DNA from: Candidatus Uhrbacteria bacterium
Lineage (GTDB): Bacteria; Patescibacteriota; Patescibacteriia; UBA9934; GWF2-40-263
Assembly (NCBI GenBank): GCA_016205995.1
Contig: JACQSJ010000013.1
Location: forward strand, 1 to 34,333
Reading direction: 5' to 3'
Length of the DNA: 34,333 bases
Each line of letters opens with the position of its first letter. Positions within the stretch are counted from its first letter, which is position 1. Below the pieces are notes generated by a model, which was given only the letters and a program-made list of their open reading frames with translations, made no database searches and was not told where the DNA came from. The position numbers were made by a program, and so were the translations under genes. Below are positions 835 to 31,614 of this stretch, in pieces.

Positions 835-839
835 ATCCT

Positions 840-3542: not shown

Positions 3543-3546
3543 ACCT

Positions 3547-3750: not shown

Positions 3751-3775
3751 CTCTTCATGCGTACGACCTACAACA

Positions 3776-3807
3776 GTCCCAACGCGAGAGCGGGGACATT
3801 TTTGTTT
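3776..3807 (+). terminator. putative intrinsic terminator of the gltX-M23 operon
   Basis: Short stem GTCCC/GGGAC (3776-3780 / 3793-3797) followed by ATTTTTGTTT. Confidence 0.35.
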
Positions 3808-3936
3808 GGAGTGTTTCTGATACTGTAGCGTCGCACAATAAACCTTCTGCGACACCCTTGGGTACGAGGCTTGTTGTCTAGCGCCGACCGGCTCCATCGT
3901 CGAGGAAATTTGTTACGTCTGACCACGTTCGACTTC

Positions 3937-4782: not shown

Positions 4783-4789
4783 ACACTGA

Positions 4790-5929: not shown

Positions 5930-6338
5930 GCAGGAAGATGTGAAGAATATCGTTATTCGCCGAAAGGCTGTCGTAGTCGAGCGCCTCCGCGGGCGTCGGC
6001 CATGCGTGCTGGTAGGCCTTCTCGTCTTCGAGCCTCACGTCACCCTCCCCTACCACGCAATAGAAACAATGCACATGGACGCGCAATACCTTTTCCGGCA
6101 GATCCCAATCATGGTGGTGGAGATGAAAGAACGAGGACTCGAGGATTGGGAGCCCTGTTTCCTCGGTGACCTCACGGTGCATAGCCGCCTCTGGTGTCTC
6201 CCCTGCTTCAAGTTTGCCACCCGGGAACTCCCACTGTTTATCCCACATCGGGTTGTTGTCACGACGTTGGATGAGCAGGATTTTCCCAGCCCGTTCACAG
6301 ATAGCGATGGCGATCTCGATTTCCTTAAGCGGTTTCAT
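5904..6338 (-). CDS. NUDIX hydrolase (MutT-like)
   Basis: Nudix box GGKLEAGETPEAAMHREVTEETGL. The start is set at ATG 6338 (MKPLKEIEI), which forms an ATGA overlap with the upstream gene's stop. The longer ORF-track N-terminus is Arg/Pro-rich and implausible. Confidence 0.85.
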   Translation of the reverse strand: MKPLKEIEIAIAICERAGKILLIQRRDNNPMWDKQWEFPGGKLEAGETPEAAMHREVTEETGLPILESSFFHLHHHDWDLPEKVLRVHVHCFYCVVGEGDVRLEDEKAYQHAWPTPAEALDYDSLSANNDILHIFLHARTPNMG

Positions 6339-6706
6339 ACTTTCTTGAGGCGCATCATGGGCACATAGTGGCCGCTCTCCCCCATCCAGACAATGAGAGC
6401 CGTTTCCAGATCGAGCTGGTCGTGACCGAGGACAATGAGATCTGGCGCGACGTCCTGGACGATGTCGAAGGTCGAGGGTTCCTGGTCGCACAACTGTGCA
6501 CGGTCGACCATCGGGAGCGCCTGAATCTTTTCGAGACGTTTGTGCTCGTGATGGGCGGGTCTGCGACCCTTGAACACGACGACATGTGCATCGCGAGCGA
6601 CTCCTACGACCAGTTCTGTGCCGCGAGCCTTTGCCGCGCGCAGGAAAAATGTATGCCCAGCATGAATCCCATCGAACGTTCCGAACACCAACACGCGCTT
6701 GTGCAT
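6335..6706 (-). CDS. small cytidylyl/adenylyltransferase-fold protein (HxGH nucleotidyltransferase)
   Basis: VLVFGTFDGIHAGHTFFL carries the (T/H)xGH signature of the cytidylyltransferase superfamily; 123 aa. Confidence 0.75.
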   Translation of the reverse strand: MHKRVLVFGTFDGIHAGHTFFLRAAKARGTELVVGVARDAHVVVFKGRRPAHHEHKRLEKIQALPMVDRAQLCDQEPSTFDIVQDVAPDLIVLGHDQLDLETALIVWMGESGHYVPMMRLKKV

Positions 6707-6708
6707 AC

Positions 6709-8181
6709 TTACTCTCGTTCGGGGCGCAGCGTTGGGAAGAGGATCACTTCCTTGAGGTTTGGCGCGTCCGTGATGAATGCAGCGAGTCGGTCTATGCCGA
6801 TTGCCATCCCGCTTGTGGGCGGCATTCCGTGAGCGAGTGCGTTCAAAAACTCTTCGTCCATGAATTGTGCGACGTCGCTTCCCTGTTCTCGAAGGGTCTG
6901 CTGTTCTTCAAATCGACGACGCTGCTCCAGTGGATCGTTGAGCTCGTGATAGTATGCGTTGATAATCTCCTGACCTTTGACGATCAGCTGAATGGAGGCG
7001 CTCTTTGTTTCGTCGTCCGGATTTTGTCGAGCGAGGGGCTTGAGTTCTAATGGATAGTCCAACACCCATGTTGGCTGGTTGAACAGCGGACGAGCCGTTT
7101 TTTTGAAGAGCTCGTCATACCACTCCCCTATTCCGACACAGCGAGAAAAATCGATTTCCAGCTTCGCGTCGGACGCGGCTTTCGCAAGCGATTCGGTTGT
7201 GCGGTGCTCGTCAATGTCGATCCCGCATGCTTGTTGAACGGCTTCGCGGAATGTGACGCGCGGCCAAGACGCTTCAAAGTCAATCATCGTTCCTTCATGA
7301 GAGAGCTGCAATGTTCCGGTCGCCTGCCGCACGATGTGACGCATGATGTCTTCCAGCGTTTGGATAAACGTCTCTTTTGGCACAAACGCCCAGTACAACT
7401 CAATGGTCGTGAACTCCGGGTTATGGGACTGATCAATCCCCTCGTTTCGGAAAAGCCGACCAATTTCGTAAACTTTCTCGAAGCCACCGATGATGAGACG
7501 CTTAAGATAAATCTCCGGTGCGATTCGAAGGTAGAGATCCGAATGAAGCGCGTTGTGGTGCGTGATGAACGGTCTTGCGTTGGCGCCACCCGGTATCGGC
7601 TGAAGGATGGGCGTTTCCACTTCAAGAAAGTCCCTCGAGTCCAAAAAAGAACGCAGCGAAGAAATGAGCTTTGAACGAACGATGAATCGTTGACGAACGT
7701 CAGGATTCACGAGCAGGTCAAGTTCGCGCTGACGATAGCGCGCTTCAACATCACTCAACCCATGCCACTTTTCAGGCAGAGGAAGGATGGCCTTACTTAA
7801 GAGTTGCTGTTTGACAACCTCAACGGTTTTCTCACCTTTCTTTGTGACGAAGACGACTCCCTCCACGCCAAGGAAATCTCCGACATCTGTCGTCTCATGG
7901 AAAAAATTATAGGAGTCCTCTCCGAGGGTATCTTTTTTGAGCGCGATTTGAATCGTTCCGGTCTGATCTTGGAGCTGGCCAAATGTCAGACCGCCATGTG
8001 TACGCAACAAACGGATGCGACCGACGATCTTCACAGTCGTGCCTTTCTCGAGGAGTTCGTCGAAATGTTGTAAAACTTCCTGGGCGGTGTGCGACCGTTG
8101 AGCACGTGTTGGGTATGGATCGATGTGAGCCGCGCGCAATTTCTCGAGGCGCCCCAGCCGATCCTTTTCTTCTTGAATCAT
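6709..8181 (-). CDS. lysS: lysine--tRNA ligase (class II)
   Basis: 490 aa with an N-terminal OB anticodon-binding region and class II motifs (FLEVETP, RLFRNEG..HNPEFT, GIDRL). Confidence 0.95.
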   Translation of the reverse strand: MIQEEKDRLGRLEKLRAAHIDPYPTRAQRSHTAQEVLQHFDELLEKGTTVKIVGRIRLLRTHGGLTFGQLQDQTGTIQIALKKDTLGEDSYNFFHETTDVGDFLGVEGVVFVTKKGEKTVEVVKQQLLSKAILPLPEKWHGLSDVEARYRQRELDLLVNPDVRQRFIVRSKLISSLRSFLDSRDFLEVETPILQPIPGGANARPFITHHNALHSDLYLRIAPEIYLKRLIIGGFEKVYEIGRLFRNEGIDQSHNPEFTTIELYWAFVPKETFIQTLEDIMRHIVRQATGTLQLSHEGTMIDFEASWPRVTFREAVQQACGIDIDEHRTTESLAKAASDAKLEIDFSRCVGIGEWYDELFKKTARPLFNQPTWVLDYPLELKPLARQNPDDETKSASIQLIVKGQEIINAYYHELNDPLEQRRRFEEQQTLREQGSDVAQFMDEEFLNALAHGMPPTSGMAIGIDRLAAFITDAPNLKEVILFPTLRPERE

Positions 8182-14392: not shown

Positions 14393-14770
14393 TCAGGAGT
14401 CACGCGAAGAAAGGAAGGTCATCTCGATGAGCCCGACAATGACGACAACCAGCAGCATGGTCCACCAACGGAACCAGCCTTGTGAGAACAGCAGGAGCGA
14501 GCTCATGAAAAGGATCGTCAACAGGATGCCGTGTCGGAACGACCGGACCGCAATGCGTGACGCAAGCTCTTCTTTAGATCGCCAAAGTCGGTAGAGCATT
14601 TCACCAAGCGAGATCGTTCCAAAGAGGGCCATGAGGAGTGTTAGGTAGAAGAGGACAAAGCCAAGAAGTCCCGAACGGGTGGGGTCTACCCCGTTGAGGA
14701 CGACCGCCCATGAGATCCAGGCGGCAACCGTGGCGATGGCCATGAAGAGCAGATACCTATGGAAGCTCAT
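14393..14770 (-). CDS. hypothetical membrane protein (about 4 TM helices)
   Basis: The start is set at ATG 14770 (MSFHRYLLFMAIA). Upstream of that, the ORF-track extension overlaps the preceding gene. No family recognised. Confidence 0.55.
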   Translation of the reverse strand: MSFHRYLLFMAIATVAAWISWAVVLNGVDPTRSGLLGFVLFYLTLLMALFGTISLGEMLYRLWRSKEELASRIAVRSFRHGILLTILFMSSLLLFSQGWFRWWTMLLVVVIVGLIEMTFLSSRDS

Positions 14771-15086
14771 AGCGGGTGGGTTCTCTTGAGAGGAAGGTTT
14801 GGATCCGATCAATCGTCGTAGTGGGAAACTCCTGGCGAAGCTTTGTGAGAAACTGTTGTTCCATGCCGACAATCCCATGGCGAGCCGCCGCGCTCTTTAC
14901 TCGCAATCGAAGGATTCCCCCTTTGAACGAAATCGCCACAACTTCAAACGCCTGCATCCCAGGAAGGTACCCGGGGATAATCCGATTCGCCGCCTCCACA
15001 ACCATGGAGGCATTGATCGATCGTCGGACGCCCGGTCGGTTAAACGCCGATCCCGAAAGGAGGTCGCGCATGGAAGATAAGCCCAT
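14757..15086 (-). CDS. small DUF721-like protein (tentative)
   Basis: 109 aa. The pattern A.V.....GG.L.L.V.S......L......FL..L resembles DUF721 proteins. This is a motif-level impression only. Confidence 0.4.
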   Translation of the reverse strand: MGLSSMRDLLSGSAFNRPGVRRSINASMVVEAANRIIPGYLPGMQAFEVVAISFKGGILRLRVKSAAARHGIVGMEQQFLTKLRQEFPTTTIDRIQTFLSREPTRYELP

Positions 15087-15113: not shown

Positions 15114-18100
15114 CTACTGTCGGAATTCGCAGATGTCGGCAAAGTCGCAGTACTGACAGTGGAACCCAGGCGTGGGATCGAACTTCGACGAGCGGATCGC
15201 CTGTACGCGAGCGACAATCGACTCCTGGAGGTCGAGAAGCTGGTCATCGGTGCCCAGGAAAGAAACCTGGCTGTTATCGGTCAGGTAGTGGTAGGTCAGT
15301 CGTTTTGGGACAAGCCCCAGTACGTCGCGCGCGGCGAGTTGGTACAAGAGGAGTTGCTCCTTGTCTTCCTTGGAGAGTTCGGTCTTAGGCGAGCCGGTCT
15401 TGTAATCGATGATCTCAACCCCATCCTCGAACCTGTCGATACGGTCGATCTGTCCTTTCAACACCACGTCCCCAAACTTCATCGTGAACCCCTGCTCCAC
15501 GGCCAGGGGGTCAGCCCCGACGTGCTCTGCAGTCGGGGCTCCGACCTCCGCGTAGCGGAGCGTCGGAGGTCTTCGGTCGTCTAGTTTTCGATAAAAGCCT
15601 TTGATTGACTCAAGTCCCTGTTGTCGATATTCCTCGCGCTGGCGGTCATTCATGAACCAATCGTCCTGCCAGCACGCGTGGTACGCCTCCACCAGCTCAT
15701 CGAGCGAAACGGGAAGCTGCTCGGACGTCGTGGTGCTACCAAACAAACTTGCCTGCCGTAACCCCTCGCGCTCCAACCACAGGGTGAAGAACCTCTGCAG
15801 TGTGTTGTGCATGGTCTTTCCAAACGAGAACGTCCACTTCCCCATGATCGGCACCTTGAGCACATGAGCAAACTTGTACTGCAACGGACAGGTTTTGAAT
15901 GCCGCGAGCTGGGTAAAGGAAAACTGTTTGGGGATGGGGAACGTGACAGTCTCGCTCGCGGGCGGTTGTCCCTGCTCCTCGTCAAACAGCTCGACGATCT
16001 CGCGAGGGGCCTCCGGCGACTCGTATCCAAGCTCGTGCAGGAATCGGGAAAGCTTGCGGGCGCGTGCCCCTCCATAGTCCTCGGCCGAGGTGAAGTAGAG
16101 TCCCACTTTCGCCCGCGTCATAGCAACGTAGAACAGTCGGCGCTCCTCCTCAAGGTGAGCATCTTTGTCGTTGGTCGGAGAGGAGCCGAGCCCTTCTGGC
16201 AGGGGTATCGCATCACTCTTCTGGTTTGTCGGAAACCGCTGGGCTACCAGGTTGACGACAAACACATGTTTGAACTCCAACCCCTTGGCCGCGTGCACGG
16301 TCATGATCCTCACCACGTCAGGCCCAGCTTCCAGGTCGATCGCGAGCGAGCCTTCCTCTCCGGCATCGCGCTCGTGGGCAAACTCCGCCAGAAAATTATG
16401 CAGAACAGGATGATCGCTCCTGCGTTCAAATGATTTGAGTCGTTGGTAGAACTGCTGAAGGTAACTAAAGCTATCGAGTTTCTTTTGCTCGGAGAGCCTA
16501 TTGAGATGCTCGAGGTACCCCGAGTCCTTCGCCACCATCACGAACAGCTCACCAACCTTGCGCGTCCGCGCGGCTTTCTGAAACGTATCAAGCTGCTCCA
16601 GAAGCCGACGAATCGCCTGCTGGTCGTCAACAGGAACCTGGAAGATTGACCCCACCTGCTCGCACGCTTCAAATAATGATTTGCCCTTGCGGTGCGCCCA
16701 CTGGTTGAGCTCGAGGATGCTGCGTTCCCCCACCCCAACGATCTTGCTCGCGAGCAGCCGGTAGAAACTCGGGCTATCAAACGGATTGTCGATCACACGC
16801 ATGTACGCCATGAGGTCCAGGACGGCTGGCTTGGTGTAGAGGCCGGAGAGCGCGAGAAACTGGTATGGGATCTTGTGCCGTTCAAGCGCGGCGGCAAAGT
16901 CCATCCCGCCGGCGTTGGAGCGCACGAGGATCGCAAAGTCACTCCAGTCAGTTCCTTCCTGCGCCTTCAGGCCCACGATTCGTTCTACGACTCGCGCGAC
17001 CTCCTCGGTCGCCGTGAGCGCGTGGATGTGTTCAACCTGGGCGGGAAGCGTGACCGCGGCCTCAAGCTTCTTGGAGAGCTGCCTCTGCGTGGCTGCCTCA
17101 AGCCGGTTGGGGTTGTTGTGCTGGATGAAGGCGTGGGCGCGGTCAAGGATCTCCTGGGCGGAGCGGTAGTTTTTTGTGAGCACCACGCGCTTCGTATCAG
17201 GGAAGTCCGCCTCGAAGCGCAAGATATTGGCAAGTGAGGCACCGCGGAATTTGTAGATGGACTGATCGTCATCCCCCACCACTGTGAGGTTTCGACGGGG
17301 CTCGGCGATGAGCTTCACAATCTCGTACTGCGCGTCGTTGGTGTCCTGGAACTCATCCACGAGGACAAACTTGAACCGCGCACGGATCTGGTCACGCACG
17401 GTCGGCCGCGTCCGCAGGAGTTTGAGCGTGTAGAGCATGAGATCTCCAAAGTCGAGGGCATCGTTTTCAAGCAAGATCTGCTGGTAGGTGGCGTACGCTC
17501 GCGCGAGCTCGTCTAGGCGTGCGATCTCACTGGTGGCCGCGTCATCCGCCTGCGCTGCGTCGAGATCCGCTTTCGTGCCCTCGACGAATTTCAGGTACTC
17601 GTCCGGGTCGATACCAACGTCCTTGGCGCGAGAGAAGTGGGTCAGCAGTGACCGAATGTACTTTGTCGGGTTCCCGAGCGGTCGGTAGTAGTCGAGGGCA
17701 AAGCGGTCGAAGTGTTGGCGGGAAAGCAGCCAGGCGTCGAGTTCGGTCATGAGTCGGAAGTCTCGCGAGAGTCCCAGCTCTGCGCCGTACTGCCGCAACA
17801 ACTTTTCCGCGAACGAATGAAACGTCGAGATCTGCAGATCGACATAGCCATACGGCAGCAACCGATCGACTCGCTCCTCCATTTCCCCTGCCGCCTTGTC
17901 GGTAAACGTGAGCGCCAAAATTTCCTCGGGCTTGGCGTGGCCTTGATCGATGAGCCAGGCGATGCGGTGAGTGACGACCGTTGTCTTTCCTGTTCCCGCG
18001 CCCGCGACGATCATCAGCGGCCCCTCCACGTGCGTGACAGCTTCGCGCTGCTCCTGGTTCAATTTTGCTAGTAAATCTTCACTCATAGTCGCTGACATCA

Positions 18101-18131
18101 TAGCATAGGGAGACGACTGAATCTCCGACAC
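15114..18131 (-). CDS. UvrD/PcrA-type SF1 helicase fused to a C-terminal PD-(D/E)xK Cas4/AddB-like Fe-S nuclease
   Basis: Helicase motifs: Walker A AGAGTGKT, DEFQD, VGDDDQSIYKFRGA, TVHAAKGLEF and YVAMTRA. Nuclease motifs: C-terminal DRIDRF...IIDYKTG plus four Cys (CPLQY ... CQYCDFADIC). The codon at 18131 is GTG; in-frame ATGs at 18101 and 18086 (MSEDLLAKLNQEQ) are plausible true starts. Confidence 0.9.
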   Translation of the reverse strand: MSEIQSSPYAMMSATMSEDLLAKLNQEQREAVTHVEGPLMIVAGAGTGKTTVVTHRIAWLIDQGHAKPEEILALTFTDKAAGEMEERVDRLLPYGYVDLQISTFHSFAEKLLRQYGAELGLSRDFRLMTELDAWLLSRQHFDRFALDYYRPLGNPTKYIRSLLTHFSRAKDVGIDPDEYLKFVEGTKADLDAAQADDAATSEIARLDELARAYATYQQILLENDALDFGDLMLYTLKLLRTRPTVRDQIRARFKFVLVDEFQDTNDAQYEIVKLIAEPRRNLTVVGDDDQSIYKFRGASLANILRFEADFPDTKRVVLTKNYRSAQEILDRAHAFIQHNNPNRLEAATQRQLSKKLEAAVTLPAQVEHIHALTATEEVARVVERIVGLKAQEGTDWSDFAILVRSNAGGMDFAAALERHKIPYQFLALSGLYTKPAVLDLMAYMRVIDNPFDSPSFYRLLASKIVGVGERSILELNQWAHRKGKSLFEACEQVGSIFQVPVDDQQAIRRLLEQLDTFQKAARTRKVGELFVMVAKDSGYLEHLNRLSEQKKLDSFSYLQQFYQRLKSFERRSDHPVLHNFLAEFAHERDAGEEGSLAIDLEAGPDVVRIMTVHAAKGLEFKHVFVVNLVAQRFPTNQKSDAIPLPEGLGSSPTNDKDAHLEEERRLFYVAMTRAKVGLYFTSAEDYGGARARKLSRFLHELGYESPEAPREIVELFDEEQGQPPASETVTFPIPKQFSFTQLAAFKTCPLQYKFAHVLKVPIMGKWTFSFGKTMHNTLQRFFTLWLEREGLRQASLFGSTTTSEQLPVSLDELVEAYHACWQDDWFMNDRQREEYRQQGLESIKGFYRKLDDRRPPTLRYAEVGAPTAEHVGADPLAVEQGFTMKFGDVVLKGQIDRIDRFEDGVEIIDYKTGSPKTELSKEDKEQLLLYQLAARDVLGLVPKRLTYHYLTDNSQVSFLGTDDQLLDLQESIVARVQAIRSSKFDPTPGFHCQYCDFADICEFRQ

Positions 18132-18146
18132 TCTCCCTCCGCGGTC

Positions 18147-18232
18147 TCCCCCCTGCCTGAGGGGGGATTAAGGGGGGAGGGAGCGCGGGGAGGTTGCCGG
18201 CGACTTCGTCCGAAGCGAACGGCAACCTCCCC
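18147..18232. other. G/C-run structured intergenic segment: hairpin 18147-18167, G-quadruplex-type motif 18161-18190, 13-bp hairpin 18187-18199/18220-18232
   Basis: TCCCCCC-TGCCTGA-GGGGGGA; G6-ATTAA-G6-A-G3-AGCGC-G4; GGGGAGGTTGCCG...CGGCAACCTCCCC. Confidence 0.6.
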
Positions 18233-18264
18233 TAACCCCTCCTTGGGAAGGAGGGGGATCGAAT
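18224..18264 (+). repeat. REP-like hairpin repeat, copy B (AACCTCCCCTAACCCCTCCTTGGGAAGGAGGGGGATCGAAT)
   Basis: Same flanks and stem as copies A and C; the loop is TTGGGAA instead of TTAAAAA. Confidence 0.75.
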
Positions 18265-18269
18265 AATGA

Positions 18270-18296
18270 TTGACATTTTTGCAAAAATGGGATAAG
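18270..18296 (+). promoter_or_regulatory. putative promoter of the vWA-FHA operon
   Basis: TTGACA (18270-18275), 15-nt spacer containing TG (18288-18289), then GATAAG (18291-18296). A small hairpin GGTTGG-CCTTT-CCAACC lies just before the AGGAGG RBS. Confidence 0.35.
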
Positions 18297-18330
18297 CCAA
18301 GGTTGGCCTTTCCAACCGATAGGAGGCTCG

Positions 18331-19599
18331 ATGTCTGCTCTTGAGATTCCTGCCGACGCCGTCCTGGACGTCCGCATCCGACTCGGACGAGATCGCCTGA
18401 CCGCTATTTCCCCCTCGCGGGTTCAGGTCCTCATCGACACGCGTCCCCAGGCGCTGACGCGGCGACAGACCGTCCCCGTGTCCATCCGGCTCGTCGTGGA
18501 CGTTTCCGGCTCCATGGGGGACCCCGTCGATCATGACCAGGAGAGCAAGCTCGAGGTCGTCAAGCAGGCGATCCTCAGACTACTCGACGAGCTGACCGAT
18601 CACGACTCCGTGCTCCTTTCGGTGTTCAGCACCGACGGCCGACTGGTGGTCCCGCAGATCCACGCACATCGCGACTCGCGACAGCGGATCCGAAATCTGC
18701 TGAAGAAGCTCAAGCCCGAGCAGTCCACCAACATCTCCGCTGGTCTCGAGCTCGCCCTGCATCCGGTCGTCGATGGTGCCCTGCCTCGTGTGATCCTGTT
18801 CACGGACGGCAACTCCTCGTTCCCGAACGAGGACCACCCGCGCCTTGTCAGGCTTGCGGACGAGGCGCGCGCGAGCCAGATCCCGCTCTCGATCTACGGC
18901 ACGGGCTCGAACTACAACTGGAGTCTGCTGCACCAGGTCGCCATCCAAGCCGGCGGAGGGAGCTTCCTCAAGCACGTCATGAACCCTTCGACCCTCGAGG
19001 GGCACATGCTCGCCGAGCTGGCGTTCCTGCGTGGCACGGCCATCAACGACTTCCGGATCAAGGGCTCTGTCCCCGACGGAGTCAAGATCATCTCGGTCAC
19101 GTCGATGATGCCCCTCATCCGCAAGCTCAAGCACGACGGTCACGTCTTCCGCGACTCGACGGGCGCGCTTGATCTCCACCGCGGAGCCCAGTACCTCGTG
19201 GAGCTGGAGGTCGCCAACCCGCAGGTCGGCCTCCTCGCCAGGGTGCTGACCATGCGCTTCCGCGGCCGGCTCTACGAAACGGGGCAGCGCTTCGACCACA
19301 CGCTGGACGCGCCCGTCACGTTCGTGGAGAACCCCTCCGAGGCCTCTGCGCCCGACCCCGAGGTCAAGAAGGTCCAACTGATGGTCATGGCCAACGACAA
19401 GGCGAAGGAGGGCAAGTTCCAAGAAGCCTCTACCCTCTACTCCCGCGCCGGTGACCGCGACACGTCCCAGGCCATGTCGGTTCTGCACACGGCCTCGCTG
19501 GGGGCCGACGCAGACCTCGAGGGGCTGACCCGCACGGGGTCGACCTTGGCCGGTGGGTCCGTGACCCAACTCTTCACGGCCAACCCCAACAAGAGCTAG
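18331..19599 (+). CDS. von Willebrand factor A (vWA) domain protein with complete MIDAS, plus an unassigned C-terminal region of about 195 aa
   Basis: AGGAGG RBS 5 nt upstream of the ATG. MIDAS elements DVSGSMG (D57), QSTNISAG and ILFTDGNS. G/C-ending codons predominate, with Lys always AAG and Phe always TTC. Confidence 0.9.
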   Translation: MSALEIPADAVLDVRIRLGRDRLTAISPSRVQVLIDTRPQALTRRQTVPVSIRLVVDVSGSMGDPVDHDQESKLEVVKQAILRLLDELTDHDSVLLSVFSTDGRLVVPQIHAHRDSRQRIRNLLKKLKPEQSTNISAGLELALHPVVDGALPRVILFTDGNSSFPNEDHPRLVRLADEARASQIPLSIYGTGSNYNWSLLHQVAIQAGGGSFLKHVMNPSTLEGHMLAELAFLRGTAINDFRIKGSVPDGVKIISVTSMMPLIRKLKHDGHVFRDSTGALDLHRGAQYLVELEVANPQVGLLARVLTMRFRGRLYETGQRFDHTLDAPVTFVENPSEASAPDPEVKKVQLMVMANDKAKEGKFQEASTLYSRAGDRDTSQAMSVLHTASLGADADLEGLTRTGSTLAGGSVTQLFTANPNKS

Positions 19600-19607
19600 G
19601 AGGTACC

Positions 19608-20183
19608 ATGCCCACCTGTCCCGCCTGTTCGGCTTCGTGCGTGCATGGGTCGCTCGTGTGCCCGCGTTGTGGTGAGGATTTGGACGCGGCCGCAGTGGCC
19701 GAGAACGTGCCCGTTACCCGAGCCCTGATGGTGGTGGGAGTAGGCCCAGAACGGGTCTACACCGTTCCCAAGATCGACCTCCATCTGATCATGGTGGAGG
19801 AACGGGTCTTCCCCGAGCACGCCATCGTGGCCACCATGCCGATCCGGCGCCTGGAAGTACCGGTCCGCATCGGTCGCAACGACCTGAGCAAGAGCCCGCC
19901 GATCCTTCCGGAGCTCGACCTGGGCCAGATCCTGGCGGAACTACTGCCAGGCAAGCGGCCGGTCGTGTCGCGGCTCCACGCCGCACTTCAGCTCAAGGAC
20001 GGCCGACCCGTCATCAAGCACCTGGTTGCCTCCCAGAATTCGACCTGGATCCAGCGCGGAAAGAGGCTCTCGGCTGTGCCGATCAACGCGCAGCGCGAGC
20101 TCGAGCACCGAGACACGCTCATCCTGGGAGACCCGCTGGGCCGCTACGTCGCTCTGCGCGTGATCCTGAGCGATCCGCGCTGA
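19608..20183 (+). CDS. zinc-ribbon + FHA domain protein
   Basis: The AGGAGG RBS overlaps the vWA stop. N-terminal CPAC-x10-CPRC. FHA core RIGRND...VSRLHAALQLKDG...SQNSTWI...LILGDPLG. Confidence 0.9.
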   Translation: MPTCPACSASCVHGSLVCPRCGEDLDAAAVAENVPVTRALMVVGVGPERVYTVPKIDLHLIMVEERVFPEHAIVATMPIRRLEVPVRIGRNDLSKSPPILPELDLGQILAELLPGKRPVVSRLHAALQLKDGRPVIKHLVASQNSTWIQRGKRLSAVPINAQRELEHRDTLILGDPLGRYVALRVILSDPR

Positions 20184-20196
20184 AGCAAGCGCTACG

Positions 20197-20228
20197 ATCC
20201 CGACCCTCGCGGCCGGGATTTTCATTTT
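20197..20228 (+). terminator. intrinsic terminator of the vWA-FHA operon
   Basis: ATCCCG...CGGGAT stem followed by TTTTCATTTT. Confidence 0.55.
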
Positions 20229-20263
20229 CCTCAACCAGGTCGGACATTAAATGTCCGACCTGC
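20215..20263 (+). repeat. palindrome-bearing repeat, copy 1 (perfect 27-nt palindrome 20236-20262)
   Basis: GGGATTTTCATTTTCCTCAACCAGGTCGGACATTAAATGTCCGACCTGC is nearly identical to 31543-31590 and shares its core with 29673-29715. Confidence 0.9.
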
Positions 20264-20265
20264 GA

Positions 20266-20302
20266 GCAAAAAGAATACCGCCCTGATCTGATCGTGGGCG
20301 GT
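20266..20302 (-). terminator. intrinsic terminator of the 202-aa gene
   Basis: Minus strand: ACCGCCC-12 nt-GGGCGGT followed by ATTCTTTTTGC. Confidence 0.55.
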
Positions 20303-20318
20303 CGTGATGGAGAGAACC

Positions 20319-20927
20319 TCAGTTGTCGAAGCGTGCCCCAGGGGCGTGTTCAGCGCCGAAGAGGTGTCCCCAGAGCTTGCGGCCTTGATTCTGCCAGAAT
20401 TCGATCCACTTCTGACGGCCGATGAAGTAGGTCCGCTTCCTGCCGTCGGGGTAGTCGACGTGGATGCGGCAGATCACCTTGTTGGTAGGGTCCACCGCCT
20501 TGATGCGCGGCTTGGCTGCCATCTGGAGCACGATCTGGTGCACCAGCGTGAGGCCGCAGCTCGCTGCCTTGCCGCACGGCACGTGGATCTCGGCGGAGAC
20601 GACGTGGATCTCCTTGAGCGCTTCCGCCTCGCGGATCTGTTGAAAGACGTACTCGTCGATCCCGCGACCCGGATAGAGCGGCGAGTCGGGTGCGACCACC
20701 ATGCACCCCCCGTGATGGGTGATGAGGTGGATGCGGGGCGTGACGCCAGCCTCGATCGCCACGCGGCGGTCGTGCTCGATGCGGTCGAGCATCTGGTCCC
20801 CGTCCGGGCATCGGATGACGATGACACCACGGGAGAGGTCGAGACCGTTCCCGTTCATGTCCTCGATGACACCGGCGCGACGAAGGGTTTCGATGACTTG
20901 GATGTCGAACGACGACAGCCGGCCCAT
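20319..20927 (-). CDS. hypothetical 202-aa protein with Cys/His motifs (IRCPDGD, THHGGC, HVPCGKAASCG)
   Basis: ATG 20927 is preceded by GGAGGATCC, with its own promoter and terminator. G/C-ending codons are strong in this frame. The ORF-track start at 20996 would run through the promoter. Confidence 0.75.
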   Translation of the reverse strand: MGRLSSFDIQVIETLRRAGVIEDMNGNGLDLSRGVIVIRCPDGDQMLDRIEHDRRVAIEAGVTPRIHLITHHGGCMVVAPDSPLYPGRGIDEYVFQQIREAEALKEIHVVSAEIHVPCGKAASCGLTLVHQIVLQMAAKPRIKAVDPTNKVICRIHVDYPDGRKRTYFIGRQKWIEFWQNQGRKLWGHLFGAEHAPGARFDN

Positions 20928-20967
20928 GGATCCTCCAGAGTTGTTCAGTTGAAACCAGAACGGCACT

Positions 20968-20996
20968 AAGATACTCCCCCTACCCCTTTTCGTCAA
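20968..20996 (-). promoter_or_regulatory. putative promoter of the 202-aa gene
   Basis: Minus-strand TTGACG (20996-20991), 17-nt spacer, TATCTT (20973-20968). Confidence 0.45.
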
Positions 20997-21031: not shown

Positions 21032-21817
21032 TTACGCGGCTTCTGCCAGACGCTCCTGTCTGCTCCATTTTTGCATTCTCACAGGTCGATCACCAGCGAG
21101 GACCGCGATCTCTTGGGCCACCTGTTCCGACGTAACCTCCTCTCCCCCAATGGCGACGATGATGAGCGGCTCTTCGTGAGAAAACTTCTTTCCAAACCCA
21201 TGATCGCCAAACGCAATTGACATGGCGATGCTGGTTTCCGTCTTTGCCTGCTCAGGAGTCATGAACTTTCGGCTCACGACAAACCCGGCAGGTAATCCCT
21301 CTACCACCGAAGGATTAAACGATCCTGTGCCGTCGACATAGACAACTCGGGCATTGTGAAACTCTTTTGGTCGATCAAGTTCTGTGATGTGTCCCTTGTA
21401 GGGGATCCCTAGTTCCTCTGCGATCCGACGCGCGCCTTCTTGCGCAACCTCGTCGACCGACCTGTCAGTGATCCCCATCTTTTCTCGATACAGCGCGGCC
21501 GCACCGCACCCGGTATGACTGGTAACTTCTTTCACGCCCCCCGCCTTTAGGTTGGCGATGAATGTCGCCCGCTCCTCCCCTTGCGTCAAGATGCCAGATC
21601 CTGCACTGCGCATGTCCCCAAAAGGGGCGCCCTCATCTATGCAGCAAAGCGTATGGTCCTGGGTCTCAAACGCCAAATCGATTCCATCCAGAGAGTCGGC
21701 ATAGTTTTCCATGCCACGTGACAAAATCGACTCGATGACAGCAGACTGCTTTGTCCATTCATGTTCAAGCTGTGCCTCGTGTTCATGCTCTGGGTTCATA
21801 TGTTCTTGATGATGCAT
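21032..21817 (-). CDS. hypothetical 261-aa protein with a His/Glu-rich N-terminus and CxDxG ... HxxCG motifs; last gene of the atp operon
   Basis: Its ATG lies 3 nt after the atpC stop. Six His occur in the first 20 residues. Motifs are LCCIDEGAPFG, SAGSGIL, VTSHTGCGAAALY and ARVVYVDGTG. Codon usage is host-like. Confidence 0.8.
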   Translation of the reverse strand: MHHQEHMNPEHEHEAQLEHEWTKQSAVIESILSRGMENYADSLDGIDLAFETQDHTLCCIDEGAPFGDMRSAGSGILTQGEERATFIANLKAGGVKEVTSHTGCGAAALYREKMGITDRSVDEVAQEGARRIAEELGIPYKGHITELDRPKEFHNARVVYVDGTGSFNPSVVEGLPAGFVVSRKFMTPEQAKTETSIAMSIAFGDHGFGKKFSHEEPLIIVAIGGEEVTSEQVAQEIAVLAGDRPVRMQKWSRQERLAEAA

Positions 21818-22264: not shown

Positions 22265-22284
22265 AACGTGGACGTCAAATTCGT

Positions 22285-22325
22285 AACCACCCCTACCCCC
22301 TCCTTAAAAAGGAGGGGGACCGGAA

Positions 22326-29672: not shown

Positions 29673-29715
29673 GAATTTCCCTGCGCCCTGTCGGACATTT
29701 AATGTCCGACAGGGC
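29673..29715 (+). repeat. palindrome-bearing repeat, copy 2 (perfect 31-nt palindrome 29685-29715) between the divergent island-B promoters
   Basis: GAATTTCCCTGCGCCCTGTCGGACATTTAATGTCCGACAGGGC, in the same orientation as copies 1 and 3 and followed by GAAAAGAAT. Confidence 0.9.
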
Positions 29716-29776
29716 TGAAAAGAATTGATAAATGTATCGAAATTTGTCATTGACTGGCAACGGATGTAGGAGTCCT

Positions 29777-29805
29777 TTGACATTTGCCGATTTCCCTGCT
29801 AATCT
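29777..29805 (+). promoter_or_regulatory. putative promoter of the 540-aa gene
   Basis: TTGACA (29777-29782), 17-nt spacer, TAATCT (29800-29805). An 8-bp 5'-UTR hairpin (29848-29867) lies just before the GGAG RBS. Confidence 0.5.
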
Positions 29806-29882
29806 CCGACCCTGGCATTTCTTCCGCCAGTGTTCCGTACAACCCCCGTGCAAGGCCGACCTTGCACATTCCTGGAGAAGCC

Positions 29883-31505
29883 ATGAGTTCAGCCCCGAAC
29901 CTCCTTCCCATCCCGCTCTCGCGGACCGGCCGCACCCTGCTGCTGGCCCTCGACCTCGTCGAAGGCTTCATGTGGAAGATGCTCCCCTCCATCCGCAACG
30001 AGGACGACGGGAAGGGCGGCACCAAGCGCGTGCGCGTCTCCAAGCAGGACCGCATCGACTTCCTGAAGTCCCGCCTCGTCATGAGCGCGGAGAACGAGCA
30101 GGTCCCCCACATGGCCGGCGTCGACTGGCGCGCGGACGTGCCCAAGTACGCCACCGAGGTCCTGATCCCCGCGATCAAGGACGGGCAGTACCAGTACGAC
30201 GGCGACGGCAACGTCGCTCTCGCTCCCGAGAAGCGCTGGCCCTACGCGGTCCGCGGCCAGACCAAGCTCCCGGACGGTAATGCCATCACGGTGCGCCCGC
30301 TCGTGCTCTGCGATGGCAAGGGCTTCCTCCTCCCCTACGTCAAGCCCCGTCAGCAGCAGGGCGAGGTCGTCTACGACGGCGTCGACGGCATGATCAGCTT
30401 CCTCTTCCGCGACTTCAACCCGTGGACCTGGGAGGACATCCTCGACGGTGACAAGCCCTCCTTCCGCGCCGTTCCGGCCGCGCTCGCGCGCCCCGAGACC
30501 GTGGCGCGCTGGAACGAGCTGGTCAAGCGCCGCGGCGAGCAGGACAAGTCCTACCCGGTCGCCTCCGAGCTCGTGACGCCCATCGCGCACAACCAGTTCG
30601 GCCGCCGCGTCCTCAAGTACCGCCCGCAGGGACACCCCCTGGTCCGCGACGGGATGCTGGGAATCCTCAAGCCCCCCCGCGACCGCGAGGAGGCCGGTGC
30701 GATCAACGTTCGCAAGGACGTGAAGCGGTGGACCCTGGGCGACCTGGTCGGCAAGACACTCGCGCTGGGCAAGGGCCTCAAGCTCATCCAGCCCGAGAAG
30801 AGCGGGCGCTTCGAGCCCCACAAGCTCGCCATCAACGAGATGTGGAGCTGGATCGATGTCGAGCAGGTCGACGGGATCTGGGGTGCGGGCACCCGCGTGG
30901 ACCAGCACGTCATCAAGGCGGAGCAGGACCCGATCGACGCCCTCGCGGCGCTCGGCCTCACGCTCTACTCCTGCAGCCCCTTCGAGGTGAAGGGAATCGT
31001 GACCCGACTCCTGACCGCCCCGATCACCGACGATCACCCGATCATCGTGAACCTGCGCAGCCGCGGGGACCTCGAGGTCGACGCCGACGAGGATCTCGCC
31101 CGGCGTCAGATGCGCGCGATCGAGACGATCCTCGTGGACGGCGCCCGCGGCACCATCCGCGAAGCCCGGCGGCGGCTCGAGCACGAGCTCGGCGGCGCCG
31201 GCAGCCAGAACCCGGGCATCAACCTGGAGCAGGCGCTGGGTGCCGAACCCACGCCGGAGCTCCTCCGGCAGGTCCACGACAACCCGACCGGGGACAACCT
31301 CCTCGTGATCGGGATGCTCACCAGCAAGACGGCCTCCGACCTCGGCCTGACCGAGTGGGACCCCAAGTGCTGGGTCCTCGTCGAGGCCTTCAAGACCCTG
31401 CTCCTCGCCCTGGCCGCCTCGGCCGGGATCGAGATGGCGCCCCCGCCGGCGCCGCCCGAGGCTCCCGCGGTCACCGAGGACCAGCCGCCCGCCACCAACC
31501 CCTGA
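29883..31505 (+). CDS. hypothetical 540-aa protein, no recognisable domain
   Basis: ATG 29883 has GGAG 6 nt upstream. The ORF-track start at 29784 lies inside the promoter. Extreme G/C-ending codon bias (Lys AAG, Phe TTC). Pro/Ala-rich C-terminal tail. Confidence 0.8.
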   Translation: MSSAPNLLPIPLSRTGRTLLLALDLVEGFMWKMLPSIRNEDDGKGGTKRVRVSKQDRIDFLKSRLVMSAENEQVPHMAGVDWRADVPKYATEVLIPAIKDGQYQYDGDGNVALAPEKRWPYAVRGQTKLPDGNAITVRPLVLCDGKGFLLPYVKPRQQQGEVVYDGVDGMISFLFRDFNPWTWEDILDGDKPSFRAVPAALARPETVARWNELVKRRGEQDKSYPVASELVTPIAHNQFGRRVLKYRPQGHPLVRDGMLGILKPPRDREEAGAINVRKDVKRWTLGDLVGKTLALGKGLKLIQPEKSGRFEPHKLAINEMWSWIDVEQVDGIWGAGTRVDQHVIKAEQDPIDALAALGLTLYSCSPFEVKGIVTRLLTAPITDDHPIIVNLRSRGDLEVDADEDLARRQMRAIETILVDGARGTIREARRRLEHELGGAGSQNPGINLEQALGAEPTPELLRQVHDNPTGDNLLVIGMLTSKTASDLGLTEWDPKCWVLVEAFKTLLLALAASAGIEMAPPPAPPEAPAVTEDQPPATNP

Positions 31506-31521
31506 GCCACGCGCTCAACGC

Positions 31522-31556
31522 CCCCGACATCGAAAGATCGTCGGGGTTTTCATTTT
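31522..31556 (+). terminator. intrinsic terminator of the 540-aa gene
   Basis: CCCCGAC-ATCGAAAGATC-GTCGGGG followed by TTTTCATTTT. Confidence 0.7.
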
Positions 31557-31590
31557 CCCTGCCAGGTCGGACATTTAATGTCCGACCTGC
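31543..31590 (+). repeat. palindrome-bearing repeat, copy 3 (perfect 27-nt palindrome 31563-31589)
   Basis: GGGGTTTTCATTTTCCCTGCCAGGTCGGACATTTAATGTCCGACCTGC. Confidence 0.9.
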
Positions 31591-31593
31591 TTA

Positions 31594-31614
31594 CAAAAAA
31601 CGGCCTAGAGGCCG
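31594..31614 (-). terminator. intrinsic terminator of tatD (hairpin overlaps the stop codon)
   Basis: Minus strand: CGGCC-TCTA-GGCCG followed by TTTTTTGTAAG. Confidence 0.55.

What the first reader, a model, noticed from the sequence alone, without database searches (positions are those of the whole stretch)
18265..20263. Island A: self-contained vWA(MIDAS) + zinc-ribbon/FHA operon with no kinase, phosphatase or AAA+ partner in cis
Seen in the sequence:
- The 422-aa protein has a complete MIDAS (DVSGSMG, STNISAG, ILFTDGNS) in roughly residues 50-225. About 195 further residues carry no motif I can name.
- Eight nt downstream, with its RBS overlapping the vWA stop, a 191-aa protein starts with CPAC-x10-CPRC and ends in a canonical FHA core (RIGR ... 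SRLHAAL ... SQNSTWI ... LILGD).
- The pair has its own TTGACA-type promoter and terminator.
- It uses AAG/TTC exclusively for Lys/Phe, whereas the adjacent helicase and atp genes use AAA/TTT freely.

Established knowledge: FHA domains bind phospho-threonine. vWA domains occur with FHA, PP2C phosphatases and Ser/Thr kinases in TerY-P-type modules, and with MoxR ATPases in vWA-MoxR conflict or signalling systems.

Inference: no kinase, PP2C or MoxR gene is visible within the window. This may therefore be a minimal or new variant of a phospho-signalling, conflict or host-interaction module acquired by HGT.
Basis: partly seen in the sequence, partly recalled or inferred. Interest (0 to 1): 0.75.

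Follow-up and report, generated by a model that had tools for sequence, protein, structure and literature searches.

The report
ArnAB-like vWA plus zinc-ribbon-FHA pair
This is a real two-gene unit that looks like a phosphorylation-read "switch" complex known from archaea (ArnA/ArnB); it is a stripped-down, vertically inherited version of a larger bacterial kinase-phosphatase signalling operon, not a recently imported island or a defence system.

Summary
Window 18331-19599 encodes a 422-aa vWA protein with an intact MIDAS. Window 19608-20183 encodes a 191-aa CxxC-x10-CxxC zinc-ribbon + FHA protein. The two are tightly coupled, GC3 is 0.81-0.86, and no kinase, PP2C or MoxR lies in the window.

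The unnamed 195 C-terminal residues of the vWA protein fold as a beta-sandwich plus four-helix bundle. This is the tripartite ArnB/Sec23-24-core architecture (Foldseek: 4FX5, then ArnB 8S05, TM about 0.7). The partner's best structural and profile hit is ArnA, the zinc-finger-FHA partner of ArnB.

Relatives of the FHA protein in Anaerolineae sit in STK-PP2C-vWA-ZnR-FHA-80aa-OmpR operons, with the same gene order and the same overlap. So the "minimal phospho-signalling variant" idea is supported.

The "HGT island / conflict module" idea is not supported. The pair occupies the same site, divergent from a UvrD/PD-(D/E)XK helicase, in 11 Uhrbacteria-type genomes. It co-diverges with its flanks but faster, has a conserved TTGAC promoter, and matches no defence model. 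The high GC3 is shared by the orthologues and remains unexplained.

Most likely function: a cytoplasmic adaptor pair whose FHA reads phospho-threonines on the vWA protein's C-terminus, written by a kinase encoded elsewhere. The kinase and the downstream target are unknown.

The parts
18270..18296 (+). Promoter-like element: TTGACA (18270-18275) and GATAAG (18291-18296), with the palindrome CATTTTTG/CAAAAATG in between
   Evidence: TTGAC and TAA of the second box are invariant in 10 orthologous upstream regions, while the surrounding spacer is not conserved. The palindrome is I7. The strict sigma-70 scan does not report it.
18331..19599 (+). Gene for the 422-aa ArnB-like scaffold protein (N-terminal strands + vWA + beta-sandwich + helical bundle)
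   Evidence: ORF. Pfam vWA. AF2 model pLDDT 82, pTM 0.73. Full-length Foldseek matches to 4FX5 (TM 0.72/0.71) and ArnB 8S05_A (0.66/0.72).
18478..18960 (+). vWA domain (aa 50-210) with complete MIDAS (D57-x-S59-x-S61, T133, D159)
   Evidence: Pfam. MIDAS residues invariant in 15 sequences.
19036..19326 (+). Beta-sandwich domain (aa 236-332), completed by the N-terminal strands aa 12-39 (18364-18447)
   Evidence: Secondary structure of the AF2 model. Same topology as ArnB/ArnE/4FX5 (PMC6509490, PMC12852372).
19357..19572 (+). C-terminal four-helix bundle (aa 343-414) plus tail with conserved Ser/Thr (T378, T405, T412, T416; tail motif G-S-[VI]-[TS]-x-x-[YF]-T). Candidate phospho-acceptor region.
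   Evidence: AF2 helices 343-359, 363-372, 376-389, 396-414. Column counts. By analogy with the phosphorylated helical bundle of ArnB (PMC12852372). Phosphorylation itself is inferred.
19597..19610 (+). Stop codon TAG overlapping the GGAGG ribosome-binding site, then the ATG of the second gene (translational coupling)
   Evidence: Sequence. Orthologues have 1- or 4-nt overlaps or a 3-nt gap.
19608..20183 (+). Gene for the 191-aa ArnA-like adaptor (zinc ribbon + linker + FHA)
   Evidence: ORF. Pfam FHA above cut-off. Best PDB profile hit is ArnA 5A8I/8S05_C, colinear over the ribbon and the FHA (E 0.034). Foldseek top hit is ArnA FHA.
19617..19670 (+). Zinc ribbon C4-x2-C7-x10-C18-x2-C21
   Evidence: All four Cys invariant in 14 sequences. 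Same spacing as ArnA C21/C24/C35/C38 (PMC12852372).
19770..20168 (+). FHA beta-sandwich (aa 55-187) with G89-R90 and S121-R122-L-H124; a conserved P-x-I-x-P-E-L-D-L insert lies between the two motifs
   Evidence: AF2 pLDDT 86-96 over this range. Foldseek. Invariant columns. The insert motif is shared with Chloroflexi-type ZnR-FHA proteins.
20196..20230 (+). Hairpin (20196-20220) followed by a U-rich tail: likely terminator of the pair
   Evidence: RNA fold of 20184-20300: MFE -49.5 kcal/mol, z -5.8. Not reported by the strict scan because of one mismatch in the stem.
20236..20262 (.). Perfect 12-bp palindrome CAGGTCGGACAT-TAA-ATGTCCGACCTG, one of three copies in the window
   Evidence: family D1; other copies at 29677-29723 and 31553-31599.

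Best explanation
The two genes encode a cytoplasmic two-protein adaptor complex of the ArnA/ArnB type. The 422-aa protein is a scaffold: a vWA domain with a metal-binding MIDAS site, a beta-sandwich and a C-terminal helical bundle. The 191-aa protein is its reader: a zinc ribbon tethered by a flexible linker to an FHA domain.

By analogy with ArnAB, the zinc ribbon docks on the beta-sandwich/helical side of the scaffold to give a loose complex. A Ser/Thr kinase encoded elsewhere then phosphorylates conserved threonines in the scaffold's C-terminal helices and tail. The FHA domain binds these phospho-threonines and the complex tightens. This changes what the MIDAS face or the zinc ribbon can bind, and so passes a signal to an unknown downstream target.

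In evolutionary terms the pair is the non-enzymatic core of a bacterial STK-PP2C-vWA-ZnR-FHA(-80aa-OmpR regulator) operon. In Uhrbacteria it has been kept alone at a fixed chromosomal site, under its own conserved promoter.

Shown here: domain content, folds, conserved MIDAS and FHA phosphate-binding residues, strict co-occurrence and coupling, synteny, and homology to the operon version.

Inferred: physical interaction, phosphorylation, the identity of the kinase, and the output.
For: Architecture and fold:
- The vWA model matches ArnB (8S05_A/B, E 1.8e-22, TM 0.66/0.72), its paralogue ArnE (5A8J) and bacterial 4FX5 over the full length, ahead of Sec23/24.
- The family profile hits 8S05_A at 5.6e-8 and 5A8J at 1.2e-5.
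- The partner profile's best PDB hit is ArnA, colinear over the zinc ribbon and the FHA. Its model's best Foldseek hit is ArnA FHA.

Functional residues conserved:
- MIDAS D57/S59/S61/T133/D159.
- FHA R90/S121/H124 and the four Cys.
- Conserved S/T at 378, 405, 412 and 416.

Linkage:
- The pair is adjacent and coupled in all 11 Uhrbacteria-type genomes.
- It is also adjacent and coupled in three Anaerolineae-type operons that add a kinase, PP2C, an 80-aa protein and an OmpR regulator.
- hhalign of the vWA family against the operon vWA proteins gives probability 98.6-99.1 %.
- FHA-profile E-values for the operon FHA proteins are 1e-15 to 1e-21, with 91-98 % coverage.

Mechanistic template: the ArnAB loose/tight phospho-switch (PMC12852372, PMC6509490). 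In that system the kinases (ArnC, ArnD) and the phosphatase (PP2A) are proteins separate from ArnA/ArnB; their position in the genome was not checked in the texts read here.
Against: - No Ser/Thr kinase or PP2C was found in the window or within about 8 kb of the pair in 10 relatives. Whether Uhrbacteria encode any such enzyme could not be checked here.
- The FHA is highly diverged. It is only just above the Pfam cut-off, and no precomputed Pfam hit exists for any close orthologue.
- The Asn of the N-G motif is not conserved in the family.
- The zinc ribbon is missing in some lineages.
- Sequence similarity to ArnA is marginal (E 0.034), and identity to ArnB is 14-15 %, so common descent with the archaeal pair is not proven.
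- C-terminal Ser/Thr content is not clearly enriched over the rest of the protein.
- No complex prediction could be run.
Confidence: 0.6

Rival explanations
1. Phospho-independent relic. Uhrbacteria lost the kinase and phosphatase of the ancestral operon. The remaining pair works as a constitutive, phosphorylation-independent complex, or the FHA now binds an unphosphorylated surface, with a repurposed scaffold role.
For: - No kinase or PP2C in cis in any of 11 genomes.
- The FHA is barely recognisable by Pfam, and the N-G Asn is lost in most members.
- The zinc ribbon is lost in some lineages.
- The pair evolves two to three times faster than its flanks.
Against: - The phosphate-binding Arg of GR and Ser of SxxH are invariant across sequences only 26-56 % identical to the window protein.
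- Conserved Thr positions sit in the partner's C-terminus.
- ArnAB works with kinases that are separate proteins, not part of the module (PMC12852372).
Confidence: 0.2
2. The output is tied to the neighbouring DNA-repair helicase-nuclease. The pair is a DNA-damage-response regulator, as reported for ArnA/ArnB in Saccharolobus islandicus, that shares a divergent control region with the UvrD/PD-(D/E)XK gene. This concerns the target and is compatible with the best explanation.
For: - The divergent arrangement with the helicase is invariant in all 11 genomes, while the right flank varies between an Mbh/complex-I-like cluster and the atp operon.
- The spacer between the two start codons is only 54-200 bp.
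- SisArnA represses DNA-damage genes together with ArnB (PMC10470591).
- A Deinococcus vWA-STK-FHA-PP2C operon is linked to DNA-damage kinases (bioRxiv 10.64898/2026.01.23.701218).
Against: - The whole left block (pbp2-mreDCB, two small genes, helicase) is syntenic in these genomes, so adjacency may be simple inheritance.
- Watad et al. found no DNA binding by ArnA/ArnB (PMC12852372).
- No DNA-binding domain is present.
Confidence: 0.12
3. A conflict or defence module (TerY-P-like or vWA-MoxR-like) or a host-interaction factor carried on a horizontally acquired island.
For: - High GC3 and codon bias relative to neighbours.
- Fast sequence divergence.
- vWA/FHA/STK/PP2C combinations occur in conflict systems. 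FHA occurs sporadically among vWA-associated effectors (PMC7159879). The TerY-P triad is recalled from memory of Anantharaman et al. 2012 and was not re-read here.
Against: - Fixed position and co-divergence with the flanks in 11 genomes.
- The GC3 excess is shared by the orthologues.
- No PADLOC match for either protein or for their operon homologues' vWA/FHA.
- No effector, NTPase, mobile-element gene, tRNA-type junction or direct repeats at the borders.
- Only generic, partial vWA matches on viral contigs and plasmids.
- No signal peptide or transmembrane segment is evident in either sequence (by eye).
Confidence: 0.05

Closest known systems
ArnA (Saci_1210) / ArnB (Saci_1211) motility-repression module of Sulfolobus acidocaldarius (PDB 5A8I, 8S05; paralogue ArnE/vWA2 5A8J)
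   Same: - Two adjacent genes.
- One product is a CxxC-x10-CxxC zinc ribbon + linker + FHA of about 190-215 aa.
- The other is a roughly 380-420-aa cytoplasmic vWA + 8-stranded beta-sandwich + C-terminal four-helix bundle with an intact MIDAS.
- The kinases and phosphatase are separate proteins, not part of the module.
- These are the best or near-best structural matches for both proteins.
   Different: - Bacterial (CPR) rather than crenarchaeal.
- Gene order is vWA then FHA.
- 14-17 % identity; the ArnA profile match is only E 0.034.
- The linker is shorter and lacks the Q-rich stretch.
- The FHA carries a conserved PxIxPELDL insert.
- No archaellum is present to regulate.
- Phosphorylation is untested.
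Anaerolineae/Chloroflexota-type operon STK(Pkinase+PQQ propeller)-PP2C-(DnaJ-)vWA-ZnR-FHA-80aa-OmpR regulator
   Same: - Closest sequence relatives outside Uhrbacteria.
- Same vWA-then-ZnR-FHA order with overlapping stop/start.
- Same FHA insert motif (IGRxD...PELDL...VSRLHA).
- vWA + beta-sandwich homologous at hhalign probability 98.6-99.1 %.
   Different: - The Uhrbacteria pair lacks the kinase, PP2C, 80-aa protein and response regulator.
- Its helical C-terminus does not align with the operon version.
- Its FHA is more diverged.
Deinococcus radiodurans DRA0331-DRA0334 operon (vWA, STPK, FHA, KI-FHA-PP2C)
   Same: A vWA protein and a stand-alone FHA protein encoded together as part of a Ser/Thr phospho-signalling unit (bioRxiv 10.64898/2026.01.23.701218).
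   Different: - The enzymes are present in cis.
- The FHA protein has a different architecture (FHA at residues 225-283, FraH-like).
- Homology of DRA0331 to the present vWA protein was not tested.
vWA-like protein Caci_2163 of Catenulispora acidiphila (PDB 4FX5)
   Same: Best structural match over the full length (E 6.9e-28, TM 0.72/0.71), with the same tripartite architecture in a bacterium (noted as ArnB-like in PMC6509490).
   Different: 17 % identity. Function and gene neighbourhood are unknown and could not be checked here.
Sec23/Sec24 COPII inner-coat core
   Same: The same order of trunk (vWA), beta-barrel and helical domains, with a zinc finger contributed here in trans (ranks 9-50; PMC12852372).
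   Different: Sec23/24 are about 730-aa single chains with a gelsolin domain. TM normalised to the target is only about 0.33. No membrane-coat role is implied.
TerY-P triad and vWA-MoxR ternary systems
   Same: A vWA protein associated with Ser/Thr phospho-signalling parts or with an AAA+ partner.
   Different: - No PP2C, kinase or MoxR in cis.
- The vWA protein is tripartite rather than a short TerY-type domain.
- No effector domains and no PADLOC hit.
- The TerY-P definition is recalled from memory.

Membership tests
ArnA/ArnB-type module | Partner 1: N-terminal four-Cys zinc ribbon (CxxC-x10-CxxC) followed by a C-terminal FHA domain in a protein of about 200 aa | tested here: met
   C4/C7/C18/C21 invariant. 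Pfam FHA 23.9 bits > 20.7. Foldseek top hit is ArnA FHA 5A8I. Profile hit to ArnA is colinear over both parts.
ArnA/ArnB-type module | Partner 2: tripartite vWA + beta-sandwich (with N-terminal strands) + C-terminal four-helix bundle, with an intact MIDAS | tested here: met
   AF2 model. Foldseek 8S05_A/B TM 0.63-0.72 and 5A8J. MIDAS invariant.
ArnA/ArnB-type module | Statistically significant sequence homology to ArnA and ArnB (common descent) | tested here: inconclusive
   The vWA profile hits 8S05_A at 5.6e-8, but only over the generic vWA domain, and other vWA proteins score similarly. The FHA profile hits ArnA at E 0.034.
ArnA/ArnB-type module | The two genes are adjacent and co-inherited | tested here: met
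   Adjacent and coupled in 11 of 11 Uhrbacteria-type genomes.
ArnA/ArnB-type module | Multi-site Thr phosphorylation of the C-terminal helical bundle, read by the FHA domain (loose-to-tight switch) | not testable with these tools
   Only indirect evidence: conserved T378, T405, T412 and T416 and invariant FHA R90/S121.
ArnA/ArnB-type module | The zinc ribbon binds the beta-sandwich/C-terminal domain of the partner | not tested
STK-PP2C-vWA-ZnR-FHA operon (Anaerolineae type) | vWA gene immediately followed by a homologous ZnR-FHA gene with overlapping or abutting stop/start | tested here: met
   Window gap is 8 nt with the RBS over the stop.
STK-PP2C-vWA-ZnR-FHA operon (Anaerolineae type) | Hanks-type kinase and PP2C phosphatase directly upstream; 80-aa protein and OmpR-type regulator downstream | tested here: not met
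   No Pfam Pkinase, PP2C or Response_reg in the window. tblastn with the operon proteins finds nothing in 172 kb of Uhrbacteria sequence.
TerY-P triad | vWA (TerY) + PP2C + Ser/Thr kinase encoded together (definition recalled from memory) | tested here: not met
   Only the vWA component is present.
vWA-MoxR systems | MoxR-type AAA+ ATPase gene next to the vWA gene | tested here: not met
   No AAA+/MoxR in the window or in any orthologous neighbourhood.
Known anti-phage defence systems (PADLOC-DB v2) | A match of either protein to a defence-system model | tested here: not met
   No hits at E <= 0.1. Orthologue and operon-version vWA/FHA also give none.
Horizontally acquired genomic island | Patchy distribution, variable location, a phylogeny discordant with the flanks, and atypical composition restricted to this genome | tested here: not met
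   Same site in 11 genomes. Identity ranks as for the helicase. The GC3 excess is shared by the orthologues. Only the composition criterion is met in the window itself.

The most novel reading that the evidence does not exclude
The pairing of a zinc-ribbon reader with a vWA/beta-sandwich/helical-bundle scaffold, the 'Sec23/24 core in two pieces', may be an ancient module shared by Bacteria and Archaea rather than a crenarchaeal invention. In genome-reduced CPR bacteria it may survive as an orphan switch. That switch could be driven by an unconventional or partner-derived kinase, or it could work without phosphorylation. Its target could be the adjacent DNA-repair helicase-nuclease or the type IV pili that such episymbionts depend on, paralleling ArnAB control of the archaellum and Ups pili.
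Probability: 0.15. Interest if true: 0.65.

Novelty: new variant of a known kind. Interest (0 to 1): 0.4.

Why it matters
The finding gives names and a testable mechanism to two "hypothetical / VWA domain-containing" genes that are conserved across a whole candidate-phylum lineage (Uhrbacteria).

It also shows that the ArnA/ArnB architecture, studied only in Sulfolobales, has a bacterial counterpart in two forms. One is a full kinase-phosphatase-regulator operon in Anaerolineae. The other is a two-gene remnant in CPR bacteria.

This offers a route to study Ser/Thr phospho-signalling in organisms with minimal regulatory repertoires. It adds bacterial data points to the discussion of where the Sec23/24 core fold came from.

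It also corrects a tempting misreading: atypical GC3 here does not mean a recent island.

Tried and rejected
- Single-sequence searches against PDB gave only generic vWA hits, and nothing for the FHA protein. Family profiles were needed.
- NCBIfam gave only sub-threshold vWA/FHA hits, so no curated family exists.
- PADLOC gave nothing for the pair.
- Rfam on 17900-20500 gave only chance-level miRNA-type matches.
- The strict promoter/terminator scan gave nothing at the expected places.
- The 'Candidatus Aquicultor primus' hit (L015), which would have implied an actinobacterial relative, was rejected as a chimeric contig. Homology stops abruptly inside the vWA gene.
- The Deinococcus deserti plasmid vWA hit (H3) turned out to be a MerR-vWA context without FHA, so it is not informative.
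- Viral-contig and plasmid searches gave only generic vWA relatives at 21-32 % identity.
- Literature searches for Uhrbacteria + FHA and for Hanks-type kinases in Patescibacteria found nothing usable.
It was re-run with A4.
- Strand bias was considered as an explanation of the GC3 excess and rejected, because unk225 on the opposite strand also has GC3 0.83.


Full report

Yes. The window has ORFs at 18331-19599 (+, 422 aa) and 19608-20183 (+, 191 aa).

The first protein matches Pfam VWA_2, VWA and VWA_3 over residues 53-209 (E 5.9e-14 to 2.4e-9). Its MIDAS residues (D57-x-S59-x-S61, T133, D159) are invariant in a 15-member family alignment.

The second protein begins C4-P-A-C7-x10-C18-P-R-C21. 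It matches Pfam FHA just above the gathering score (23.9 vs 20.7 bits).

The weak FHA call is backed by three independent results:
- G89-R90, S121-R122-L-H124 and the four Cys are invariant in 14 sequences.
- An AlphaFold model (pLDDT 81) has FHA domains as its top hits.
- A profile of the family retrieves more than 2000 proteins that carry Pfam FHA.

The vWA stop codon overlaps a GGAGG, 8 nt before the next ATG.

The codon-usage statement is exact. AAA and TTT are absent from both genes. GC3 is 0.86 and 0.81, against 0.56-0.74 for the helicase, mre and atp genes.

Pfam scans of 25 of the window's long ORFs found no kinase, PP2C or MoxR.

The strict consensus scan reports no promoter or terminator. 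However, TTGAC and a gATAAg box are invariant or nearly so in ten orthologous upstream regions, while the rest of the spacer is free to vary. The 3' spacer folds into two strong hairpins (z -5.8), the first followed by a U-rich tract.

**2. What are the 195 unnamed residues?**

The AlphaFold model of the 422-aa protein (pLDDT 82, pTM 0.73) has four parts:
- N-terminal strands;
- the vWA domain;
- a beta-sandwich (residues 236-332) that the N-terminal strands complete;
- a four-helix bundle (residues 343-414).

Foldseek against the PDB gave these full-length matches:
- 4FX5, a Catenulispora vWA protein (TM 0.72/0.71);
- ArnB in the ArnA-ArnB complex 8S05, titled 'an archaeal ortholog of the Sec23/24 core motif' (TM 0.66/0.72);
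- the ArnB paralogue ArnE, 5A8J;
- then ITIH1 and many Sec23/Sec24 chains.

The family profile also finds 8S05_A (5.6e-8) and 5A8J (1.2e-5) by sequence.

For the partner protein:
- The best PDB hit of the family profile is ArnA itself (5A8I and 8S05_C). The match is colinear over the zinc ribbon and the FHA, but marginal (E 0.034).
- The best Foldseek hit of the model is the ArnA FHA domain (E 1.3e-5).

**3. The known system it resembles**

ArnA (zinc finger + FHA) and ArnB (vWA + beta-sandwich + helical bundle) of Sulfolobus acidocaldarius form a phospho-switch (PMC6509490, PMC12852372):
- The zinc finger binds the beta-sandwich and C-terminal domain of ArnB, giving a loose complex.
- The kinase ArnC phosphorylates threonines of the C-terminal bundle sequentially.
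- The FHA domain then binds them, giving a tight complex.

The enzymes ArnC, ArnD and PP2A are proteins separate from ArnA/ArnB. 'No kinase in cis' therefore does not rule out this kind of module.

In the present family the C-terminus has conserved Ser/Thr positions:
- T378 is invariant.
- Positions 405, 412 and 416 are S/T in 14-15 of 15 sequences.
- There is a tail motif G-S-[VI]-[TS]-x-x-[YF]-T.

Overall Ser/Thr content there is not clearly enriched.

**4. Relatives and their neighbourhoods**

Full-length relatives of both proteins are few. Those that carry names are all Candidatus Uhrbacteria or 'Patescibacteria group'.

In every contig long enough to judge, the arrangement is helicase (UvrD + PD-(D/E)XK, minus strand) | vWA (+) | FHA (+). 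The loci are L001/L011, L004/L013, L006, L007, L008, L009/L014, L012, L016, L025/L026 and L029, plus the window: 11 distinct genomes.

- On the left, two small genes and mreBCD-pbp2 usually follow.
- On the right there is either an Mbh/complex-I-like cluster, or, as in the window, two unknown genes and the atp operon.

Identity of the pair falls in step with that of the helicase. Helicase/vWA values are 92/68, 86/60, 84/60, 85/53, 71/45, 69/45 and 60/35 %. The FHA drops to 26 %.

This is vertical co-divergence, with the pair evolving two to three times faster than its flanks.

The pair's GC3 excess is present in the orthologues too. Examples are L001 at 0.83 vs 0.57-0.62, L008 at 0.78-0.80 vs 0.44-0.60, and L007 at 0.60 vs 0.39. 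It is weaker but of the same sign in the 40 %-GC genomes.

A recent island is therefore excluded. An ancient acquisition by the Uhrbacteria ancestor cannot be excluded.

**5. Where the pair came from**

A profile of the FHA family reaches a large family of 160-210-aa zinc-ribbon + FHA proteins (2068 hits).

Three of these were inspected: L027, L028, and L030 from an Anaerolineae MAG. Each lies in the same operon:
- Ser/Thr kinase (Pkinase + PQQ propeller);
- PP2C;
- vWA protein of 450-490 aa, sometimes with an N-terminal DnaJ domain;
- ZnR-FHA, with a 4-nt overlap;
- an 80-aa protein;
- an OmpR-type response regulator.

Their vWA proteins align with the Uhrbacteria family over the vWA domain plus beta-sandwich (hhalign probability 98.6-99.1 %). 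Their FHA proteins share the unusual insert I-G-R-x-D...P-E-[LI]-D-[LF]...V-S-R-[LM]-H-A.

The exhaustive profile search shows the tripartite architecture grading out into many 400-490-aa proteins. There are 62 cluster representatives at or below 1e-30 and 12,062 at or below 1e-10.

The Uhrbacteria pair is the non-enzymatic core of that operon.

None of the operon's other four proteins has a homologue in 172 kb of Uhrbacteria sequence around the locus.

**6. What it is not**

- Neither protein matches a PADLOC model, nor do the orthologue or operon-version vWA/FHA proteins.
- No AAA+/MoxR gene, effector or mobility gene is nearby.
- Viral contigs and plasmids hold only generic vWA relatives at 21-32 % identity.
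- No N-terminal signal peptide or hydrophobic segment is evident by eye in either protein. A cytoplasmic role is therefore expected, as for ArnAB.

**7. Most likely mechanism, and what is uncertain**

I favour (0.6) an ArnAB-like adaptor switch driven by a kinase encoded elsewhere. The output is unknown.

The main rival (0.2) is that the enzymes were lost from the lineage altogether and the pair now acts without phosphorylation. Supporting this rival:
- the very diverged FHA;
- the non-conserved N-G asparagine;
- loss of the zinc ribbon in some lineages (P0067, P0060).

I could not survey whole Uhrbacteria genomes for kinases with the tools and quotas available. That survey is the single most decisive missing computation.

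One lead on the target is the invariant divergent pairing with the helicase-nuclease. ArnA represses DNA-damage genes in Saccharolobus islandicus (PMC10470591). A Deinococcus vWA-STK-FHA-PP2C operon is tied to DNA-damage kinases (bioRxiv 10.64898/2026.01.23.701218). However, the whole left block is syntenic in these genomes, so adjacency alone proves little.

**8. Novelty and score**

ArnB-like folds in bacteria have been noted before (4FX5 and YfbK; PMC6509490, PMC12852372). vWA/FHA/STK/PP2C clusters are also known.

I found no description of the following:
- the pairing of an ArnB-like scaffold with an ArnA-like ZnR-FHA reader in bacteria;
- the six-gene Anaerolineae operon;
- its two-gene remnant conserved across Uhrbacteria.

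This is a new variant of a known kind. It is useful for annotation and as an entry point to signalling in CPR bacteria, but it is not a new principle. Interest 0.4.

Noticed in passing
window 18331-20996 and 29784-31505; loci L001, L006, L007, L008, L004, L009: The GC3 excess of the pair (0.81-0.86) is shared by its orthologues in genomes of 40-55 % GC. In the window it is also seen in other poorly conserved, lineage-specific genes: unk225 at 20319-20996 (0.83) and unk573 at 29784-31505 (0.93). At 35-60 % protein identity, synonymous sites should be saturated. The bias therefore seems to be actively maintained rather than a leftover of a donor genome. No explanation was found, and strand is not the cause.
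   Followed up: partly
window 20226-20272, 29677-29723, 31553-31599: There are three copies of a palindrome, (C)AGGTCGGACATT[TA]AATGTCCGACCTG. One lies just after the FHA gene. The other two flank the 70 %-GC gene at 29784-31505. The palindrome is absent from the 30 related loci held at the time. It may be a genome-specific REP-like element or a shared bidirectional terminator that marks the high-GC3 genes.
   Followed up: partly
window 836-877, 18220-18261, 22281-22322; also L001 5493-5513, L011 3493-3513, L012 2948-2968: A second repeated intergenic hairpin, CCCCTCCTT-nnn-AAGGAGGGG, is present. In the window it is part of a roughly 130-bp hairpin-rich, GC-rich stretch (18133-18260). This stretch sits in the divergent helicase/vWA spacer and has no counterpart in the shorter spacers of the nearest relatives.
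   Followed up: partly
L015 (MELI01000021.1, labelled Candidatus Aquicultor primus), 1-1343 versus 1344-7343: The contig looks chimeric. Its first 1343 nt are the nearest relative of the window (helicase 92 % aa, vWA 68 %). Homology then stops abruptly inside the vWA gene (= window 19047), and unrelated genes follow. The actinobacterial label should not be read as evidence of the pair outside CPR.
   Followed up: yes
L029 5392-6931: In this relative the vWA gene is called only from profile position 118 (370 aa, no Pfam hit), leaving 428 uncalled bases upstream. This could be a frameshift, an assembly error or decay of the MIDAS-bearing N-terminal half. Its FHA partner also lacks the zinc ribbon.
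   Followed up: partly
L027 7669-7911, L028 7513-7752, L030 7502-7744: A conserved 80-aa protein with no family match (…IHL/I-x-NEDPI-x-x-EI…NPRRRDGKD…FIEI-x-P…) always sits between the ZnR-FHA gene and an OmpR-type regulator in the Anaerolineae-type operons. It is probably a further component of that signalling cassette.
   Followed up: no
window 20319-20996 (-) and 21032-21817 (-): Two proteins of 225 and 261 aa have no Pfam, NCBIfam or PADLOC match. They lie between the pair and atpC and are conserved in the same place in L009/L014 and L016 (46-61 % identity). They are Uhrbacteria-specific genes of unknown function, and the first shares the pair's high GC3.
   Followed up: partly
window 14757-15086 (-): A small conserved gene lies next to the helicase. 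Its counterpart in L029 has a weak Pfam DciA (replicative-helicase loader) hit, so this may be the DciA of these genomes.
   Followed up: no
L031 and L034 (IMG/VR contigs of 448 kb and 184 kb): Large 'viral' contigs encode vWA proteins that align with the query over vWA plus beta-sandwich (residues 15-374, 25-27 % identity). The tripartite architecture therefore also occurs on giant-virus-sized or misclassified contigs.
   Followed up: no
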